Assembly (NCBI GenBank): GCA_019057385.1
Contig: JAHQJS010000005.1
Location: 128,699 to 192,698, forward strand
Origin: Candidatus Borrarchaeum weybense
GTDB lineage: Archaea; Asgardarchaeota; Sifarchaeia; Borrarchaeales; Borrarchaeaceae
Direction of reading: 5' to 3'
DNA: 64,000 nt
Part shown: piece after piece, positions 10,839 through 56,259 of the stretch
Numbering within the stretch: position 1 is the stretch's first letter
How the letters are laid out: each line of letters opens with the position of its first letter
Notes under the pieces: generated by a model
The model's input: only the letters and a program-made list of their open reading frames with translations
What the model was told of the DNA's origin: nothing
Databases searched by the model: none
Made by a program: the position numbers and the translations under genes

Positions 10839-11813
10839 ATGAGCCCCTTCGTCTCTATCCTTGTTCCTTGCTTAAACGAAGAAAATACTTTGCGTTCTCT
10901 TACAGGACGTGTTGAAAAGACTCTTGCTGGACTACAAAATATTCAATGCGAACTTATCTTTATAGATGATGGAAGTACAGACGAAACGGGGTCAATAATT
11001 GATCAATTAAGTCAAGAAATTCCATGGGTGAAGGCATATCATCATTCAACAACAAAAGGAAAATCTGCAGCCATAATGAACGGTTTTTACCATTCTAAAG
11101 GAAATATCATAATTCTATTAGATGCAGATCTGCAATTCTTTCCTGAAGACATTCCAGCAATCCTTTCAGAAATGACTCAGAAAAAATTAGATATTGTTAA
11201 TGGCTGGAGAAAGGAGCGAAAAGATCCTTTGTCCAGAAGGGCTGCATCTCGTCTCTATAATTCCTTTGCAAGTTCTCTCTTCGGACTAAAGGTTCATGAT
11301 TATAACTGTGGGATCAAAGGTCTAAAACGGGAGGTATTAGAATCCTTCAGATTAAGAAAAGGATATCATCGTTATATACTGGCCCTTGCAAAGCATCACG
11401 GGTTTCGTATAGGCGAAGTAGTAGTTCAACATGCCCCTCGCCCGTATGGAAAGTCTAGATACCGAACTAGTCGACTATTTGCAGGATTTGTGGATTTGAT
11501 GAGTTTAAAACTTCAATTCATGTTTATGGAGCGCCCCATGTCACTGTTTGGCGTGCTTGGCGCATTTATCTTCCTCCTCGGTCTTATTTCTGGAGCTTAT
11601 CTTGTATATCTTTGGTTTCTTGAAGGCGGTATTGGTACACGACCACTTCTCTTCCTTACAGTCCTCTTACTTGTTGCAGGCATTCAGTTTTTCTCATTTG
11701 GATTTTTAGCTGACGCAATTGCATCTTTAAAAACAGACGTTGATTATCTTAATCAATTAGTCATACAGAGGAAAGAAGAAAACACAAAAGGTCAATCACC
11801 CCCTAACAAGTGA
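10839..11813 (+). CDS. GT2 glycosyltransferase (ArnC/dolichol-phosphate type) with two C-terminal TM helices
   Basis: VPCLNEE, IDDGSTD, LDADLQ, HDYNCGIK; stop codon lies inside the adjacent element. Confidence 0.92.
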   Translation: MSPFVSILVPCLNEENTLRSLTGRVEKTLAGLQNIQCELIFIDDGSTDETGSIIDQLSQEIPWVKAYHHSTTKGKSAAIMNGFYHSKGNIIILLDADLQFFPEDIPAILSEMTQKKLDIVNGWRKERKDPLSRRAASRLYNSFASSLFGLKVHDYNCGIKGLKREVLESFRLRKGYHRYILALAKHHGFRIGEVVVQHAPRPYGKSRYRTSRLFAGFVDLMSLKLQFMFMERPMSLFGVLGAFIFLLGLISGAYLVYLWFLEGGIGTRPLLFLTVLLLVAGIQFFSFGFLADAIASLKTDVDYLNQLVIQRKEENTKGQSPPNK

Positions 11814-12199
11814 GGGGGCTTGTTCCGTGAGGAACAAGAGTAATTGGTTGATTAGCCTAAGAGAGGTCGTGGTGGAACACACATGACGGTATCTACGTTA
11901 TCAGGAGAGTTAAAGAACACACCAAGGGATGCTTCTCTAGTCCCGTGCTCTGTAAACGGTGGTTTAAACAGAGAGGAAACTCTCAGTGATCATCGTAGAG
12001 TACTGACTGATAACCTTGGCGAAGAGAACCTACTCCCCTGGTGTTGGGAGCGGCGGGACTTGCGAGTACCCGTTATTAAAACACCACCCGAGGTTGGGTA
12101 CACCAACCCCTGTCTTCGCAGAAAGGGTTGTGTGAGCAACGCTCGACCTCAATTCATGTATCCCCCCAACAAGTTGAGGGGTCTTCTTGCGAGGTAGTT
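11791..12199 (+). mobile_element. Non-autonomous IS200/IS605 element carrying a stand-alone IscB-type omegaRNA (HEARO-like), no iscB ORF
   Basis: GTCAATCACCCC..GGGGGCTTG, GTTGATTAGCCTAAG, CTACGTT, ACACC-GGATGCTTCTCTAGTCC, TAAACAG..CAGTG, AACCTTGGCGAAGAGA motif series; terminal AATTCAT-hairpin-TTCTTG-N10 then ATAAA. Confidence 0.85.
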
Positions 12200-16934: not shown

Positions 16935-18392
16935 ATGCCATATCAAGGTCCATTAAACCAGATTTCGGAAAACATTTACGAAATTCCTATCAAACATAAA
17001 CAAGGGATGAGAGTTCCAGGAAGAGTTTATGCTAGTCCTGAACTTCTAGAAAAAATGAAGGGTGATCTTACACTTACACAGTGTGTAAATGTAGCGCATC
17101 TACCAGGGATACAAAAGTTTGCGATTACCTTGCCCGATGGTCATCAGGGCTACGGCTTTCCTATTGGTGGTGTGGGTGCTACTGACGTAAATGAAGGAGG
17201 CGTTATTTCCCCTGGAGGCGTTGGCTATGATATTAACTGTGGTGTACGTCTACTTTGGACGACTCTTGAAAGAAAGGAGGTCGAGCCTAAGTTAGATGAC
17301 CTCTTATCAACACTCTTTAGGACAGTCCCCTCTGGTGTTGGGAGGACGGGACAAATACGTTTTTCAAAAGGAGAATTAGATGAGGCATTACTTGGGGGAG
17401 TAAAATGGGCTGTTGAGCAAGGATATGGATGGCGTATAGATGCAAGTCATTGTGAAAGCCAAGGATCTCTTGAACACGCAAATCCTGACAAGATTAGTGA
17501 AAAAGCAAAAAGTCGTGGACAACCTCAATTAGGTACATTAGGTAGTGGAAATCATTTCCTTGAGCTTCAATATGTAGAGAAAATCTATGATGAACGCATA
17601 GCTAAAGCTTTTGGTATAACTAATGAAGGACAAGTCACAGTAATGATTCATACAGGATCACGTGGATTTGGACATCAAGTTTGTTCAGATTATCTTCGTG
17701 TTATGGAAAATGCAGTGAGAAAGTATAAAATAATGATTCCTGATAGAGAACTGGCATGTGCGCCTGGGACGAGTAGAGAAGGTGAAGATTATTTTGCCGC
17801 GATGGCATGTGCAGCTAACTTTGCATGGGCAAATAGACAGTTCATCACTCATTGGGTAAGAGAAGGATTTGATAAATGGTATAAAACAGACCCCGACGAA
17901 CTTGGACTTCAACTTATTTATGATGTAGCACATAATATTTGCAAACAGGAACGTCATGTCATTGATGGTAAAACAAAATCACTGTTTGTTCATCGAAAAG
18001 GTGCAACACGAGCATTTCCAGCAGGTCACACCGATCTTCCGCAAGATTATAAACCTATTGGCCAGCCAGTAATTCTACCTGGCTCGATGGGTACGGCATC
18101 ATATCTACTTTGTGGACAAGATACTGCAATGGAATATAGTTTCGGTAGTACTGCACATGGCGCTGGACGAGTTATGAGTAGATATAAGGCAAAAAAGAGA
18201 TATTTCGGAGAGAAAGTTGCTAGTGATTTAAGGCAGAGAGGAATATTTGTATATGCCACAAGTAACAAAGTAATCGCAGAAGAGGCACCAGGGGCATATA
18301 AAGATATTAATCAAGTTGCCAAAGTCTCTAATGACGTAGGGATCGCATCTTTTGTTTGTAAATTACGTCCTATGGGTGTTGTAAAGGGATAA
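16935..18392 (+). CDS. rtcB: tRNA-splicing ligase RtcB
   Basis: LPDGHQGYGFPIGG, GYDINCG, GTLGSGNHF, HTGSRG, HRKGAT, STAHGAGR, EEAPGAYK. Confidence 0.98.
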   Translation: MPYQGPLNQISENIYEIPIKHKQGMRVPGRVYASPELLEKMKGDLTLTQCVNVAHLPGIQKFAITLPDGHQGYGFPIGGVGATDVNEGGVISPGGVGYDINCGVRLLWTTLERKEVEPKLDDLLSTLFRTVPSGVGRTGQIRFSKGELDEALLGGVKWAVEQGYGWRIDASHCESQGSLEHANPDKISEKAKSRGQPQLGTLGSGNHFLELQYVEKIYDERIAKAFGITNEGQVTVMIHTGSRGFGHQVCSDYLRVMENAVRKYKIMIPDRELACAPGTSREGEDYFAAMACAANFAWANRQFITHWVREGFDKWYKTDPDELGLQLIYDVAHNICKQERHVIDGKTKSLFVHRKGATRAFPAGHTDLPQDYKPIGQPVILPGSMGTASYLLCGQDTAMEYSFGSTAHGAGRVMSRYKAKKRYFGEKVASDLRQRGIFVYATSNKVIAEEAPGAYKDINQVAKVSNDVGIASFVCKLRPMGVVKG

Positions 18393-36878: not shown

Positions 36879-38954
36879 TTAAGTTATTTTTGAACCTGGA
36901 CGAAGAGGCCGATCAACTATTAGAAGGCCTAAAGCACCTGTTTGCGGATCTTCTGCTGCTAAGAGCATTCCATTAGATTTTAGGCCACGGATTTCTGCCG
37001 GTTTAAGATTAACTAGTACTATAATCTGTTTATTCACTAATTCTTCTGGTTTATAGTAGCCGATTAGTGATGAGACAATTTGCCGCGTTCCAAGCTCGGC
37101 ACCTAGATCTACTTCCATGCGAATTAATTTTTCAGTACCTTCAACATGCTCTGCCACAACAACTTTTCCCACACGCATATCTAATGTTTTGAAGTCATCA
37201 AACGTAATGAGTGGAGTGGGTTCAGAAGGTTCAGATGGTTCAACTAGTGTTGCTTTTAACTTTTCTTCTTGAGCCTTTATTATTTTGTCATCTATCTTGG
37301 CGAACAGGGGTTCAGGATCATCTACGATTTTATGCCCTGCTGAAAATCCTTCAAGGGCTGCGTCCCAGGTCTGTTCGTGCACAGAATTCTCAAAACCCAG
37401 GGATTTCCACAATCTTTCTGCTACAAAAGGTAAGTATGGCTCCATAAAAATAGCAAGTGCTCTAACTACTTTTGCACACACACCAAGCGTAGTTTTTGCC
37501 TTTTCTGGTGCCTCTTTTATCGCTTTCCATGGGGCTTTATCATTAAAGTATTTATTGCACTTATGCATGAAGTCCATGATGCTTGTTAAACCAGTACGGA
37601 GTTCAAAAGACTCTATACTTTTTTCAATATTCTTTTGTAGTTCACCAAGATGTTCTAAAAACTTGTTATCGGCTTCATCGAGATCATTGATTTCTTGGAC
37701 TACACTGTCAAAGAAGCGATTGGTAAAAGTAAGCGTTCTGTGAATGAAATTTCCGAGGTCTGAAACTAGTTCATTATTTACTTTTGTTTGATACTCTTTC
37801 CATTTGAAGTCCGCATCTTCAAGGAGATTAGAGTAACTTATCCAGTAATATCGTAAGGTGTCAGGATCAAAGTTGTCGAGGAATTCAGTGAGTCCGACGT
37901 ACCAGCCTCTACCTTTGGACATTTTGCGCCCCTCAAGATTTCCATATCCATATGTAGGAATTTTGGTAGGTACGCGATGGCCAGATCCCATAAGTTCAGT
38001 AGGCCAGAAAAGCGCATGATGGTACACTATTCCTTTTCCAATAAAATGAATTAATTCAGTATCTTTTTCCTCTGCAAGATCCTTTAGCCAAAATTCTTTC
38101 CATTTCGATTCATCTTTCGCTTCTTCGATTGCCCACTCGATTGTAGAAGTCTTGTAACCAAGAAAAGCGTCAAACCAGACATAAATGACCTTTCCTTCAG
38201 CATCATCGAGGGGAACGGGAACACCCCAGTCTAAATCACGAGTTATACAGATATCTTCCAAGCCAGGTTCAAGATATTGCCCAATTAAATATTCCTTACC
38301 GTAAACTGGGAGCACATCTTCCTCTTCTAGCCATGTTCTTAATTTTTCTGCAAAATTTGAAAGTTTGAGATACCAGTGTTTGCTTACTTCAATTATTGTC
38401 GGAGATCCACACAATTTGCAATGTGGATAAAGTAATTCTCCCTCATGGAGAGCTCGACCACAACTGTCACATTCATCTCCTCGTGCGTGATCAAACCCGC
38501 AATAAGGACATTTTCCTTCTACATATCTATCTGGCAAGAATCTCTTATCATTAGGGCAATAGGGGAGCGAAAGGTCTTTCTCATAGATGTGTCCGGCTTC
38601 ATGTAGTTTTAAAAAAACGTCTTGAGTGTTTTCATAATGTAGTTTTCTACTTGTTCTTGAGAAATTATCAAAAGAAATGCCAAGGCGCTTGAAATCATTC
38701 ACATCTTGCTCATAGTATTTCGTAGCCACCTCAATTGGCGTAACGCCCTCTTCCTCAGCCCGTATACTAATAGGTGTACCATGTTCGTCAGTGCCACTTA
38801 CAAACACTATCTCATGACCCTTTAATCTGCAATAACGAACATAAATATCTCCAGGGATATATGTACTCCGTGCATGAGCTATATGCAACTCAGAATTAGC
38901 GTATGGGAGAGCGCATGTCACGAGAATCTTTCTTTTTTTCATTGCCACCACCAC
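36879..38954 (-). CDS. metG: Methionyl-tRNA synthetase with C-terminal tRNA-binding domain
   Basis: ALPYAN, GTDEHG, Zn knuckles, YVWFDA, KMSKG. Confidence 0.97.
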   Translation of the reverse strand: MVVAMKKRKILVTCALPYANSELHIAHARSTYIPGDIYVRYCRLKGHEIVFVSGTDEHGTPISIRAEEEGVTPIEVATKYYEQDVNDFKRLGISFDNFSRTSRKLHYENTQDVFLKLHEAGHIYEKDLSLPYCPNDKRFLPDRYVEGKCPYCGFDHARGDECDSCGRALHEGELLYPHCKLCGSPTIIEVSKHWYLKLSNFAEKLRTWLEEEDVLPVYGKEYLIGQYLEPGLEDICITRDLDWGVPVPLDDAEGKVIYVWFDAFLGYKTSTIEWAIEEAKDESKWKEFWLKDLAEEKDTELIHFIGKGIVYHHALFWPTELMGSGHRVPTKIPTYGYGNLEGRKMSKGRGWYVGLTEFLDNFDPDTLRYYWISYSNLLEDADFKWKEYQTKVNNELVSDLGNFIHRTLTFTNRFFDSVVQEINDLDEADNKFLEHLGELQKNIEKSIESFELRTGLTSIMDFMHKCNKYFNDKAPWKAIKEAPEKAKTTLGVCAKVVRALAIFMEPYLPFVAERLWKSLGFENSVHEQTWDAALEGFSAGHKIVDDPEPLFAKIDDKIIKAQEEKLKATLVEPSEPSEPTPLITFDDFKTLDMRVGKVVVAEHVEGTEKLIRMEVDLGAELGTRQIVSSLIGYYKPEELVNKQIIVLVNLKPAEIRGLKSNGMLLAAEDPQTGALGLLIVDRPLRPGSKIT

Positions 38955-53504: not shown

Positions 53505-53762
53505 TGGTGGGGACGGAGGGATTTGAACCCCCGATTCGAAATGAGACTTCCCTAATTTTGACTGATGTTTTTTGCCTCATTCTTCCGCCAACCGTGAGAA
53601 CCACGCCACGTGTTGCCATCGGGTTTCTCTGGTAAGCACAACTCCAGAAGATCTTCATCCTTCCGTCAGTTTTTGCTATTTACAACCTCTGGAGCCCGAC
53701 GTGCTACATTACCTCATACTAACCTACCAGAGATTAATACGAACTGGCTACACTACGTCCCC
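53505..53762 (-). tRNA. tRNA-Trp(CCA), four predicted introns (18/19, 37/38, 45/46, 46/47)
   Basis: GGGGACG/CGTCCCC acceptor, TCGGG-CTCCAG..A-CCCGA, GGGGG-TTCAAAT-CCCTC, encoded CCA; introns 53708-53743, 53625-53688, 53583-53616, 53535-53581. Confidence 0.9.
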
Positions 53763-53866
53763 AATTGCTACAATTGTAGACACGAAATAGTGATCAGGTT
53801 TTGTTTTAAATTTTACTAAAAATGATAAATTAGTTGTTTCTCAACAAAAAAATAGCCCAGAACAGG

Positions 53867-56058: not shown

Positions 56059-56259
56059 GGGCGGGTGGTCTAGCATGGTATGATTCCGGATTTGGGTGCC
56101 CTCCTCTTAATGAGGAGACAAAAACATCCGGAGTTCTGCTTGGGTAACCCCAGCACGATACGGAATGACTCTACACGCGCGCTGTGGTGTCCCGTTTGCC
56201 GGGAGTTCGAAGGAATAGAGAGAAACCCTCTCTTTCTGAAAATCTCCCCTCGCCCACCA
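56059..56259 (+). tRNA. tRNA-Pro(TGG), four predicted introns (37/38, two tandem at 45/46, 59/60)
   Basis: GGGCGGG/CTCGCCC, CCGGA-TTTGGG..A-TCCGG, GGGAG/CTCCC, encoded CCA; introns 56097-56125, 56134-56165, 56166-56197, 56212-56242. Confidence 0.88.

What the first reader, a model, noticed from the sequence alone, without database searches (positions are those of the whole stretch)
56132..56200. Back-to-back introns at one site in tRNA-Pro (recursive splicing, zero-length exon)
The 64-nt insertion at 45/46 splits into two 32-nt hairpin units, each ending in a partner for the same exon CCGG (ACGG-AA and CCGT-TT). Removing the first brings GAC next to the bulge to pair with GTC and completes the second BHB. 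Suggests re-invasion of an occupied site.
Basis: partly seen in the sequence, partly recalled or inferred. Interest (0 to 1): 0.78.

Follow-up and report, generated by a model that had tools for sequence, protein, structure and literature searches.

The report
Two abutting introns in tRNA-Pro
The proline tRNA (UGG) gene of this Asgard archaeon (Borrarchaeum group) has two unrelated 32-base tRNA-type introns sitting directly against each other at one site, so the splicing enzyme probably has to cut three times there; this is an unusual variant of the known "nested intron" situation, and it has not yet been seen in RNA.

Summary
Window 56059-56259 is a tRNA-Pro(UGG) gene with introns at 37/38 (29 nt), 45/46 (64 nt) and 59/60 (31 nt). 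Joining the exons gives a canonical 77-nt tRNA.

The 64-nt insert splits only at 32|32. Each half has the build of a stand-alone 45/46 intron of this genus: one bulge base, a flush hairpin, a 4-nt tail complementary to exon 40-43 (CCGG), then 2 nt. Only 4 of 2000 shuffles allow any such split.

The halves are unrelated to each other. Unit 1 best matches the single 45/46 intron of tRNA-Pro(CGG); unit 2 best matches those of tRNA-Val. This fits a second intron gained at an occupied site.

All four alleles found (window, a same-genus MAG, metagenomes) keep both units, although the 37/38 or 59/60 intron is missing in some. No one-unit allele was found in the genus. A more distant Asgard family has one 27-28-nt intron at this site.

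The splicing order is open. Because CCGG is a palindrome, unit 1's tail (ACGG-AA) imitates the exon end. In two alleles it pairs perfectly with unit 2's tail, and folding energies favour removing unit 2 first.

No RNA data cover the gene. Nested, ordered tRNA splicing is already known, so this is a new variant. The scan noted similar stacked BHB introns elsewhere.

The parts
56059..56259 (+). tRNA-Pro(UGG) gene with encoded CCA, interrupted by four intervening units
   Evidence: Exon join is called tRNA-Pro(tgg), 77 nt, by ARAGORN. ARAGORN and Rfam miss the unspliced gene.
56059..56096 (+). exon 1 (positions 1-37)
   Evidence: identical in all 4 alleles
56097..56125 (+). 29-nt intron at the canonical 37/38 position
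   Evidence: Relaxed BHB with the anticodon stem as outer helix. Absent in allele L041.
56126..56133 (+). exon 2 (positions 38-45, ATCCGGAG). CCGG at 56128-56131 is the exon strand of the central helix.
56134..56165 (+). unit 1: 32-nt intron (bulge T, hairpin, 1-nt spacer, tail ACGG at 56160-56163, then AA)
   Evidence: Best match is the stand-alone tRNA-Pro(CGG) 45/46 intron. Only 2 of 32 sites vary among 4 alleles.
56166..56197 (+). unit 2: 32-nt intron (bulge T, 9-bp hairpin starting GAC and ending GTC, tail CCGT at 56192-56195, then TT)
   Evidence: Same build as the 30-nt tRNA-Val 45/46 introns, which are its best matches (z 4.2-5.4, 0 of 500 shuffles).
56198..56211 (+). exon 3 (positions 46-59)
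56212..56242 (+). 31-nt intron at 59/60 with a canonical hBHBh' motif
   Evidence: Top score in the BHB scan: central helix 4/4, outer helix 5 bp. Absent in the G004-type allele.
56243..56259 (+). exon 4 (positions 60-73 plus CCA)
17079..18389 (+). RtcB-type RNA ligase gene, the expected exon-joining enzyme
   Evidence: PF01139 match, E 9.9e-175, at G000:C5:145777-147087, converted to window coordinates

Best explanation
The 64-nt insert at position 45/46 of tRNA-Pro(UGG) is two separate archaeal bulge-helix-bulge introns with no exon base between them. Unit 1 is the resident Pro-type intron. Unit 2 is a Val-type intron gained later at the same junction.

The splicing endonuclease (a catalytic and a structural EndA paralog, as in Crenarchaeota) would cut at three places: AG|T, AA|T and TT|G. 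RtcB would join the exons in two rounds and release two 32-nt introns.

The middle site serves twice. It is the 3' bulge of unit 1's motif (exon CCGG paired with ACGG). It is also the 5' bulge of unit 2's motif (ACGG, or the exon CCGG after unit 1 has gone, paired with CCGT). This works because the exon strand CCGG is a palindrome, so any intron tail that pairs with it also copies it.

What is shown: anatomy, homology, conservation, and presence of the enzymes. What is inferred: the cuts themselves and their order. Folding energies favour unit 2 first in three of four alleles.
For: - Exon join gives a canonical tRNA-Pro; keeping either unit destroys it.
- There is a unique valid split at 32|32, found in only 4 of 2000 shuffles; the 64 nt fails as a single unit.
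- Unit 2 has the exact build (1+9+loop+9+4+2) of the 30-nt 45/46 introns in three tRNA-Val genes of this genome and three in relatives. In allele L041 it is also 30 nt.
- Best matches are consistent in all four alleles: unit 1 to the Pro(CGG) intron (z 2.6-3.9), unit 2 to Val introns (z 4.2-5.4, 0 of 500). Unit 1 versus unit 2 gives z below 0.
- Both units are kept in four diverged alleles whose exons are 100% identical, while the 37/38 or 59/60 intron is absent in some.
- A more distant Asgard family has one 27-28-nt intron at the same site. It has a perfect CCAG:CTGG helix and AG|N bulges, and its exon join is tRNA-Pro. This validates the cut rule used here.
- Constrained folds of the full precursor: ACGG:CCGT conformer -78.0, exon:ACGG -73.1, exon:CCGT -67.9, against an MFE of -81.2 (other alleles).
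- Two EndA paralogs are present. One best matches crenarchaeal catalytic subunits (3p1z_B, 3ajv_B, 2cv8_A). The other lacks the catalytic His by my reading and also matches structural subunits 3iey_B and 2zyz_A. RtcB is present.
Against: - There is no RNA evidence. The only RNA run does not cover the gene.
- Both central helices with the exon have only 3 of 4 pairs. Neither motif has an outer helix.
- Pairing of exon 40-43 with an intron tail competes with the anticodon stem. This is also true of every single 45/46 intron in this lineage.
- The four alleles give no compensatory covariation, only two G-C to G-U changes.
- No allele with one unit was found within the genus.
- The similarity scores are inflated by shared structural constraints (start base, hairpin, tail).
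- Nearest-neighbour energies are crude for protein-recognised motifs.
Confidence: 0.66

Rival explanations
1. One 64-nt intron with two internal hairpins. The endonuclease cuts only the outer sites (AG|T and TT|G) in a three-way-junction conformer in which exon CCGG pairs with the final tail CCGT. A single 64-nt intron is released.
For: The outer sites are the only ones required for the correct product. Broad-specificity two-subunit EndA enzymes are reported to cut relaxed half-motifs (PMC4090602, PMC5829648). No one-unit allele was found in the genus.
Against: The 64 nt fails the single-unit test because no closing helix sits flush with the bulges. The exon:CCGT conformer is the least stable, 13 kcal/mol above the MFE in the full precursor. 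The middle site sits in a well-formed 3-nt bulge in both more stable conformers and would be exposed to the enzyme. The two halves have different ancestry, and each half equals a stand-alone intron.
Confidence: 0.2
2. Only unit 2 is an intron, removed through the ACGG:CCGT motif. Unit 1 stays in the mature tRNA as a long extra arm. This would explain its exon-like conservation.
For: Unit 1 varies at 2 of 32 sites, against 7-10 of about 30 in the other three intervening units, and one change keeps a pair (G-C to G-U). Unit 2's motif needs no exon pairing in two alleles.
Against: Unit 1 has every mark of the 45/46 introns of this genome: T after AG, hairpin, and a tail complementary to exon 40-43 followed by AA. 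It is closest to the tRNA-Pro(CGG) insert at the same site. ARAGORN finds no tRNA when it is kept. By general knowledge, a 37-nt variable region in a class I tRNA has no precedent.
Confidence: 0.04
3. The insert, or unit 1, carries a guide or other functional RNA (for example a C/D-box-like methylation guide), as proposed for some archaeal tRNA introns. It would be a single functional intron.
For: The high conservation of unit 1.
Against: There is no C or D box. The longest antisense match to its own tRNA is 6 nt, which 288 of 500 shuffles reach. There is no Rfam match, and no other copy in the genome within 4 substitutions.
Confidence: 0.04
4. The gene is a decaying pseudogene and the insert is not removed at all.
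For: Standard tRNA finders miss it.
Against: It is the only UGG-anticodon proline gene found in a 100%-complete genome. All 77 exon bases are identical in four alleles whose introns and flanks differ. The exon join is a canonical tRNA.
Confidence: 0.03

Closest known systems
Nested, order-dependent introns in multiple-intron crenarchaeal pre-tRNAs (Sugahara et al. 2007, RNA 13:671; Tocchini-Valentini et al. 2009, PNAS 106:20246; as summarised in PMC3728597 and PMC3978253)
   Same: Several BHB introns in one pre-tRNA, with motifs that share or depend on each other's nucleotides. Each round is two cuts and one ligation, by a broad-specificity EndA.
   Different: Here the two introns are not one inside the other. 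They abut exactly, share one cut site and leave no exon base between them. Either order is structurally possible. I could not read the two primary papers, so I cannot exclude that an abutting case is among their examples.
[quoted passage not shown] 2024, PMC11291895; Goswami et al. preprint 10.64898/2026.10.13.758758)
   Same: Same phylum and the same phenomenon: most tRNA genes have several non-canonical introns. The preprint lists Borrarchaeaceae at 2.12 intervening sequences per gene, half of them missed by tRNAscan-SE.
   Different: A term search of the preprint found no 'tandem' or 'two introns'. It counts intervening sequences per position, so a 64-nt insert would count as one.
tRNA intron transposition in Thermoproteales (Fujishima et al. 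2010, MBE 27:2233; summarised in PMC4033280)
   Same: Similar intron sequences at the same position in tRNAs of different identity; here unit 2 and the tRNA-Val 45/46 introns.
   Different: Identity here is only about 60-67%, below the thresholds used in that work. The landing place is an already occupied site. The preprint found little such copying in other Asgard classes.
Neighbouring tRNA-Trp gene of the same genome
   Same: Two introns in the variable loop that share recognition nucleotides. My two-unit test also flags it (36+46 nt).
   Different: It was read there as separated by a 1-nt exon. I did not re-analyse it in detail.
Recursive splicing at zero-length exons (ratchet points) in long Drosophila introns (general knowledge: Hatton 1998, Burnette 2005, Duff 2015)
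   Same: Stepwise removal of one long insert, with a regenerated splice site and no exon left between the steps.
   Different: That is spliceosomal, sequence-defined and in mRNA. Here the splicing is protein-only and structure-defined. The resemblance is an analogy, not homology.

Membership tests
Archaeal BHB (EndA-spliced) tRNA intron | Removal restores a canonical cloverleaf tRNA | tested here: met
   The exon join is tRNA-Pro(tgg), 77 nt; with either unit kept no tRNA is found.
Archaeal BHB (EndA-spliced) tRNA intron | Strict hBHBh' motif: 4-bp central helix, two 3-nt bulges, inner and outer helices | tested here: not met
   Unit 1 has 3 of 4 central pairs, a 1-nt spacer and no outer helix. 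Unit 2 with the exon has 3 of 4 and no outer helix. Only the 59/60 intron of this gene is strict.
Archaeal BHB (EndA-spliced) tRNA intron | Relaxed motif (central helix plus 3-nt bulges plus a flush inner helix), as accepted by two-subunit or epsilon-type EndA | tested here: met
   Both units pass and shuffles rarely do (4 of 2000). Unit 2 with unit 1's tail has 4 of 4 central pairs in G000 and L041. The same build is seen in stand-alone Val, Thr, Met and Pro(CGG) 45/46 introns.
Archaeal BHB (EndA-spliced) tRNA intron | Genome encodes a splicing endonuclease of broad specificity and an RtcB ligase | tested here: met
   There are two PF01974 genes. One best matches crenarchaeal catalytic subunits; the other lacks the catalytic His by my reading and matches structural subunits. 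RtcB is present. Subunit assembly itself was not tested.
Archaeal BHB (EndA-spliced) tRNA intron | Excision seen in RNA (mature junction, excised or circular intron) | not testable with these tools
   Runs holding the locus are DNA contigs. The one RNA run does not cover the gene.
Nested / order-dependent multiple-intron pre-tRNA | One intron's motif can form only after another intron is removed | tested here: inconclusive
   Exon:unit 2 pairing needs unit 1 removed first. However, unit 2 can use unit 1's tail instead (4/4, 3/4, 2/4 and 4/4 pairs in the four alleles), and that conformer is the most stable of the three in three alleles.
Transposed tRNA intron family (Thermoproteales type) | Closely similar intron sequence in tRNAs of different identity | tested here: inconclusive
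   Unit 2 versus Val introns gives z 4.2-5.4 and 0 of 500 shuffles, with up to 20 of 30 ungapped identities by my own hand count (not a tool result). This is below the 70-80% identity used in the literature, and shared constraints inflate it.
Intron-borne C/D-box guide RNA | C and D boxes plus an antisense stretch of 9 nt or more to a target | tested here: not met
   No boxes were found, and the longest antisense match is 6 nt, as expected by chance.

The most novel reading that the evidence does not exclude
Tail mimicry lets BHB introns pile up. An intron tail must pair with the exon strand, which here is the palindrome CCGG, so the resident intron's 3' end (ACGG-AA|) recreates the exon half-site (CCGG-AG|). 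The Val-type intron then landed on this copy. If so, the tandem pair records the target that the still unknown Asgard intron-insertion process recognises (an RNA-level BHB half-site rather than DNA sequence). It would also mean that an intron's splice motif can be built wholly from intron sequence.
Probability: 0.2. Interest if true: 0.7.

Novelty: new variant of a known kind. Interest (0 to 1): 0.5.

Why it matters
How archaeal tRNA introns arrive is an open question. The recent Asgard census found repeated gains but no route of arrival.

A junction where a second intron of different ancestry sits exactly against a resident one is a natural experiment. It shows that an occupied site can be hit again. 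It also points to the exon-like intron tail as a possible landing signal.

It gives a compact substrate (201 nt, three cut sites within 64 nt) for testing how a two-subunit EndA chooses among competing motifs.

It also matters for annotation. Standard tools miss this gene entirely, and position-based censuses would count the pair as one intron.

Tried and rejected
- **RNA evidence.** The look-up of sequencing runs gave 20 holders, of which one is RNA. Laying X20 (RNA), X6, X10 and X11 showed that the RNA contigs stop in the neighbouring tRNA-Tyr. No joints and no deletions were seen. The DNA contigs of X6 and X10 carry the full 64-nt insert. This says nothing about expression.
- **One-unit alleles.**
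  - The class holds only 6 representative genomes, and tRNA-Pro(UGG) was found only in G000 and G004.
  - The exon-1 pattern found 5 metagenome contigs and 1 genome contig, all with both units.
- **Loose BHB scan** over all position pairs. It is too noisy to be evidence; many chance hits score like the true introns.
- **Unconstrained MFE of the whole precursor.** It pairs unit 1 with unit 2 over a long range. I did not treat it as meaningful.
- **Covariation on four alleles.** There are no double-sided changes.
- **Duplication origin.** The units are unrelated to each other.
- **Dispersed mobile element.** There is no second copy of either core in the genome.
- **Guide RNA.** No support.
- **Rfam at a permissive threshold.** Only a chance CRISPR-repeat hit at E 0.85.
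- **A +1 register for the G004 allele** (GGA:TCC). By hand it would give a wrong final variable loop, so I rejected it.
- **Primary papers.** The papers on nested introns (PMC2787110, PMC1852824, PMC3064391) are not held.
- **Crude genome-wide two-unit screen.** It flagged only this gene and tRNA-Trp as credible. Hits in tRNA-Leu and tRNA-Pro(GGG) are false, because the 'insert' would include the variable arm or the anticodon arm.

Full report
**What is there.** The window is 38.7% G+C. It lies in a 4.18-Mb, 8-contig genome of the genus that includes 'Candidatus Borrarchaeum yapensis', an Asgard archaeon.

At 56059-56259 the sequence reads directly as a tRNA-Pro(UGG) gene interrupted three times:
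- exon 1, 56059-56096
- a 29-nt intron at 37/38
- exon 2, 56126-56133 (ATCCGGAG)
- a 64-nt insert, 56134-56197, at 45/46
- exon 3, 56198-56211
- a 31-nt intron at 59/60
- exon 4 with encoded CCA, 56243-56259.

ARAGORN and Rfam do not see the unspliced gene. The joined exons are called tRNA-Pro(tgg), 77 nt, with a normal cloverleaf. Leaving either half of the insert in gives no tRNA.

**The cut rule.** In the bulge-helix-bulge motif the last six exon bases are four helix bases plus two bulge bases. The intron's first base completes the bulge. The intron's last six bases are four helix bases plus two bulge bases.

This rule is met perfectly by the 59/60 intron of this gene: TTCG:TGAA, 5-bp outer helix. 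It is also met by the single 27-28-nt 45/46 introns of tRNA-Pro(UGG) in three genomes of a more distant Asgard family. These have CCAG:CTGG, bulges AG|N and AG|A, and their exon joins are again tRNA-Pro. I therefore used this rule throughout.

**Two units, not one.**
- Unit 1 (56134-56165) is T, a hairpin, one spacer base, the tail ACGG, then AA.
- Unit 2 (56166-56197) is T, a 9-bp hairpin (starting GAC, ending GTC) flush with the tail CCGT, then TT.
- Each tail pairs 3 of 4 with exon CCGG.
- In a shuffle test that keeps the true ends, only 4 of 2000 shuffles allow any split into two units with a 3-of-4 tail and a flush hairpin.
- The real insert allows exactly one split, at 32. It fails the same test as a single 64-nt unit, because its interior folds into two separate hairpins with no closing helix.

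**Each unit equals a stand-alone intron elsewhere.** In this genome and its relatives the tRNA-Val genes (GAC, CAC, UAC) carry 30-nt 45/46 introns built 1+9+5+9+4+2. tRNA-Pro(CGG) carries a 33-nt one ending TCGG-AA with a 1-nt spacer. tRNA-Thr and tRNA-Met in the window have the same kind of intron at the same site.

Alignment against this small library gives the same answer for all four alleles:
- unit 1 is closest to the Pro(CGG) intron (z 2.6-3.9);
- unit 2 is closest to Val introns (z 4.2-5.4, 0 of 500 shuffles);
- the two units are unrelated to each other (z below 0).

In one allele unit 2 is 30 nt with a 5-nt loop, exactly the Val format. Shared constraints inflate these scores. However, the loop-region similarity between unit 2 and a Val(GAC) intron is not something splicing requires. 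Neither unit has another copy in the genome.

The simplest history is a resident Pro-type intron plus a later Val-type arrival at the same junction. It is not a duplication and not a dispersed mobile element.

**Comparative picture.** I found four distinct alleles:
- the window itself;
- the B. yapensis type (also in two metagenome contigs);
- Ga0180437/Ga0180438;
- Ga0114925.

All 77 exon bases are identical. The 37/38 intron is missing in one allele and the 59/60 intron in another. Both units of the 45/46 insert are always present. Contigs of two more runs also carry the whole insert.

So the tandem pair is older than this diversity, and no one-unit allele turned up in the genus. The representative set has only six genomes in the class.

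Unit 1 varies at only 2 of 32 sites, against 7-10 of about 30 in the other three units. I cannot explain this (see noticed items). The alleles give no compensatory covariation.

**Mechanism and order.** The genome has two EndA paralogs:
- one best matches crenarchaeal catalytic subunits;
- the other lacks the catalytic histidine by my reading and also matches structural subunits.

It also has RtcB. This is the enzyme set that, according to the literature, handles relaxed motifs at non-canonical positions (PMC5829648, PMC4033280).

Three near-palindromic segments compete: exon CCGG (E), unit 1's tail ACGG (T1) and unit 2's tail CCGT (T2). Because CCGG is its own complement, any tail that pairs with it also resembles it. 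ACGG-AA| therefore imitates CCGG-AG|.

T1:T2 has 4/4, 2/4, 3/4 and 4/4 pairs in the four alleles, in the order window, G004-type, Ga0180437, Ga0114925. E:T2 has 3/4 in all.

Constrained folds of the full precursor give:

| Conformer | Energy (kcal/mol) |
|---|---|
| MFE | -81.2 |
| T1:T2 | -78.0 |
| E:T1 | -73.1 |
| E:T2 | -67.9 |

T1:T2 leaves the anticodon stem intact. Both exon pairings must open it, as must every 45/46 intron in this lineage. After unit 2 is removed, E:T1 is only 0.6 kcal/mol above the optimum. After unit 1 is removed, E:T2 is 2-5 above.

The sequence therefore favours 'unit 2 first, then unit 1' in three alleles. In the B. yapensis-type allele T1:T2 has only 2 canonical pairs, which suggests the reverse order there. 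Its stated reason (bringing GAC to GTC) is not right, since that stem is internal to unit 2. These energies are crude, and the enzyme has not been tested.

**Rivals.**
- A single 64-nt intron cut only at the outer sites needs the least stable conformer. It also ignores a well-formed middle bulge. I give it 0.2.
- Retention of unit 1 as an extra arm would explain its conservation. It conflicts with its intron-like build and with the Pro(CGG) homologue. I give it 0.04.
- A guide-RNA reading finds no boxes and no antisense beyond chance.
- A pseudogene reading conflicts with perfect exon conservation and with this being the only UGG proline gene found.

**What is known already.**
- Multiple-intron tRNAs, nested introns that must be spliced in order, and intron transposition between tRNAs are established for Thermoproteales (as summarised in PMC3728597, PMC3978253, PMC4033280).
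- Heavy interruption of Asgard tRNA genes is published (PMC11291895). A 2026 preprint lists Borrarchaeaceae at 2.12 intervening sequences per gene.
- I found no description of two introns abutting at one position. Full-text searches for the relevant terms returned nothing for archaeal tRNAs.
- I could not read the two primary papers on nested introns.
- This scan has noted related stacked BHB introns on other DNA: an mRNA, permuted 5S genes, and the tRNA-Trp gene 2.5 kb upstream in this window.

I therefore rate it a new variant of a known kind, of moderate interest. Its value is as a clean test case for motif choice by EndA and for how introns land.

Noticed in passing
window 56134-56165: Unit 1 is much more conserved than the other three intervening units of the same gene: 2 of 32 variable sites among four alleles, against 7-10 of about 30. 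Between G000 and G004 it has 0 differences. By my hand comparison of the printed sequences, the comparable tRNA-Pro(CGG) intron differs at about 8 sites. The reason is unknown.
   Followed up: partly
window 56097-56125 and 56212-56242; L041:8609-8780; L002:1500-1670: Intron presence/absence polymorphism between close alleles of one tRNA gene. The 37/38 intron is absent in metagenome contig Ga0114925_10002089. The 59/60 intron is absent in the B. yapensis-type allele. Exons are identical in all.
   Followed up: partly
window 53505-53765 (minus strand): The tRNA-Trp gene (255 nt) also passes my two-unit test at the variable loop (36+46 nt). Doubled variable-loop introns therefore occur at least twice in this genome.
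   Followed up: partly
window 17079-18389: An RtcB RNA ligase gene lies in the same window. A second RtcB match, in two pieces, lies on contig C1 (G000:C1:13917-15008).
   Followed up: no
G000:C1:107-253 and G000:C1:19436-19895: Contig C1 carries compact, intron-less tRNA genes in a tight cluster, unlike the heavily interrupted tRNA genes elsewhere. C1 may be foreign or a mobile element (genome contamination estimate 7%).
   Followed up: no
window 11791-12033: A strong match to the HEARO RNA family (128.7 bits), the guide-type RNA of IS200/IS605-related elements.
   Followed up: no
G000:C8:110957-111103: tRNA-Pro(GGG) has no 45/46 intron. It has an insert of about 40 nt between the 5' acceptor strand and the D arm, and a 59/60 intron.
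   Followed up: no
window 56212-56242; G000:C4:332584-332718; G000:C8:121901-122036; G000:C3 minus strand (reverse-complement coordinates 37438-37574): The 59/60 introns of the tRNA-Pro and tRNA-Val genes are clearly alike (they start GGAA and end TTTCTGAAAA). These genes also share the acceptor stem GGGCGGG. The cause could be copying between genes or common descent of whole genes.
   Followed up: partly
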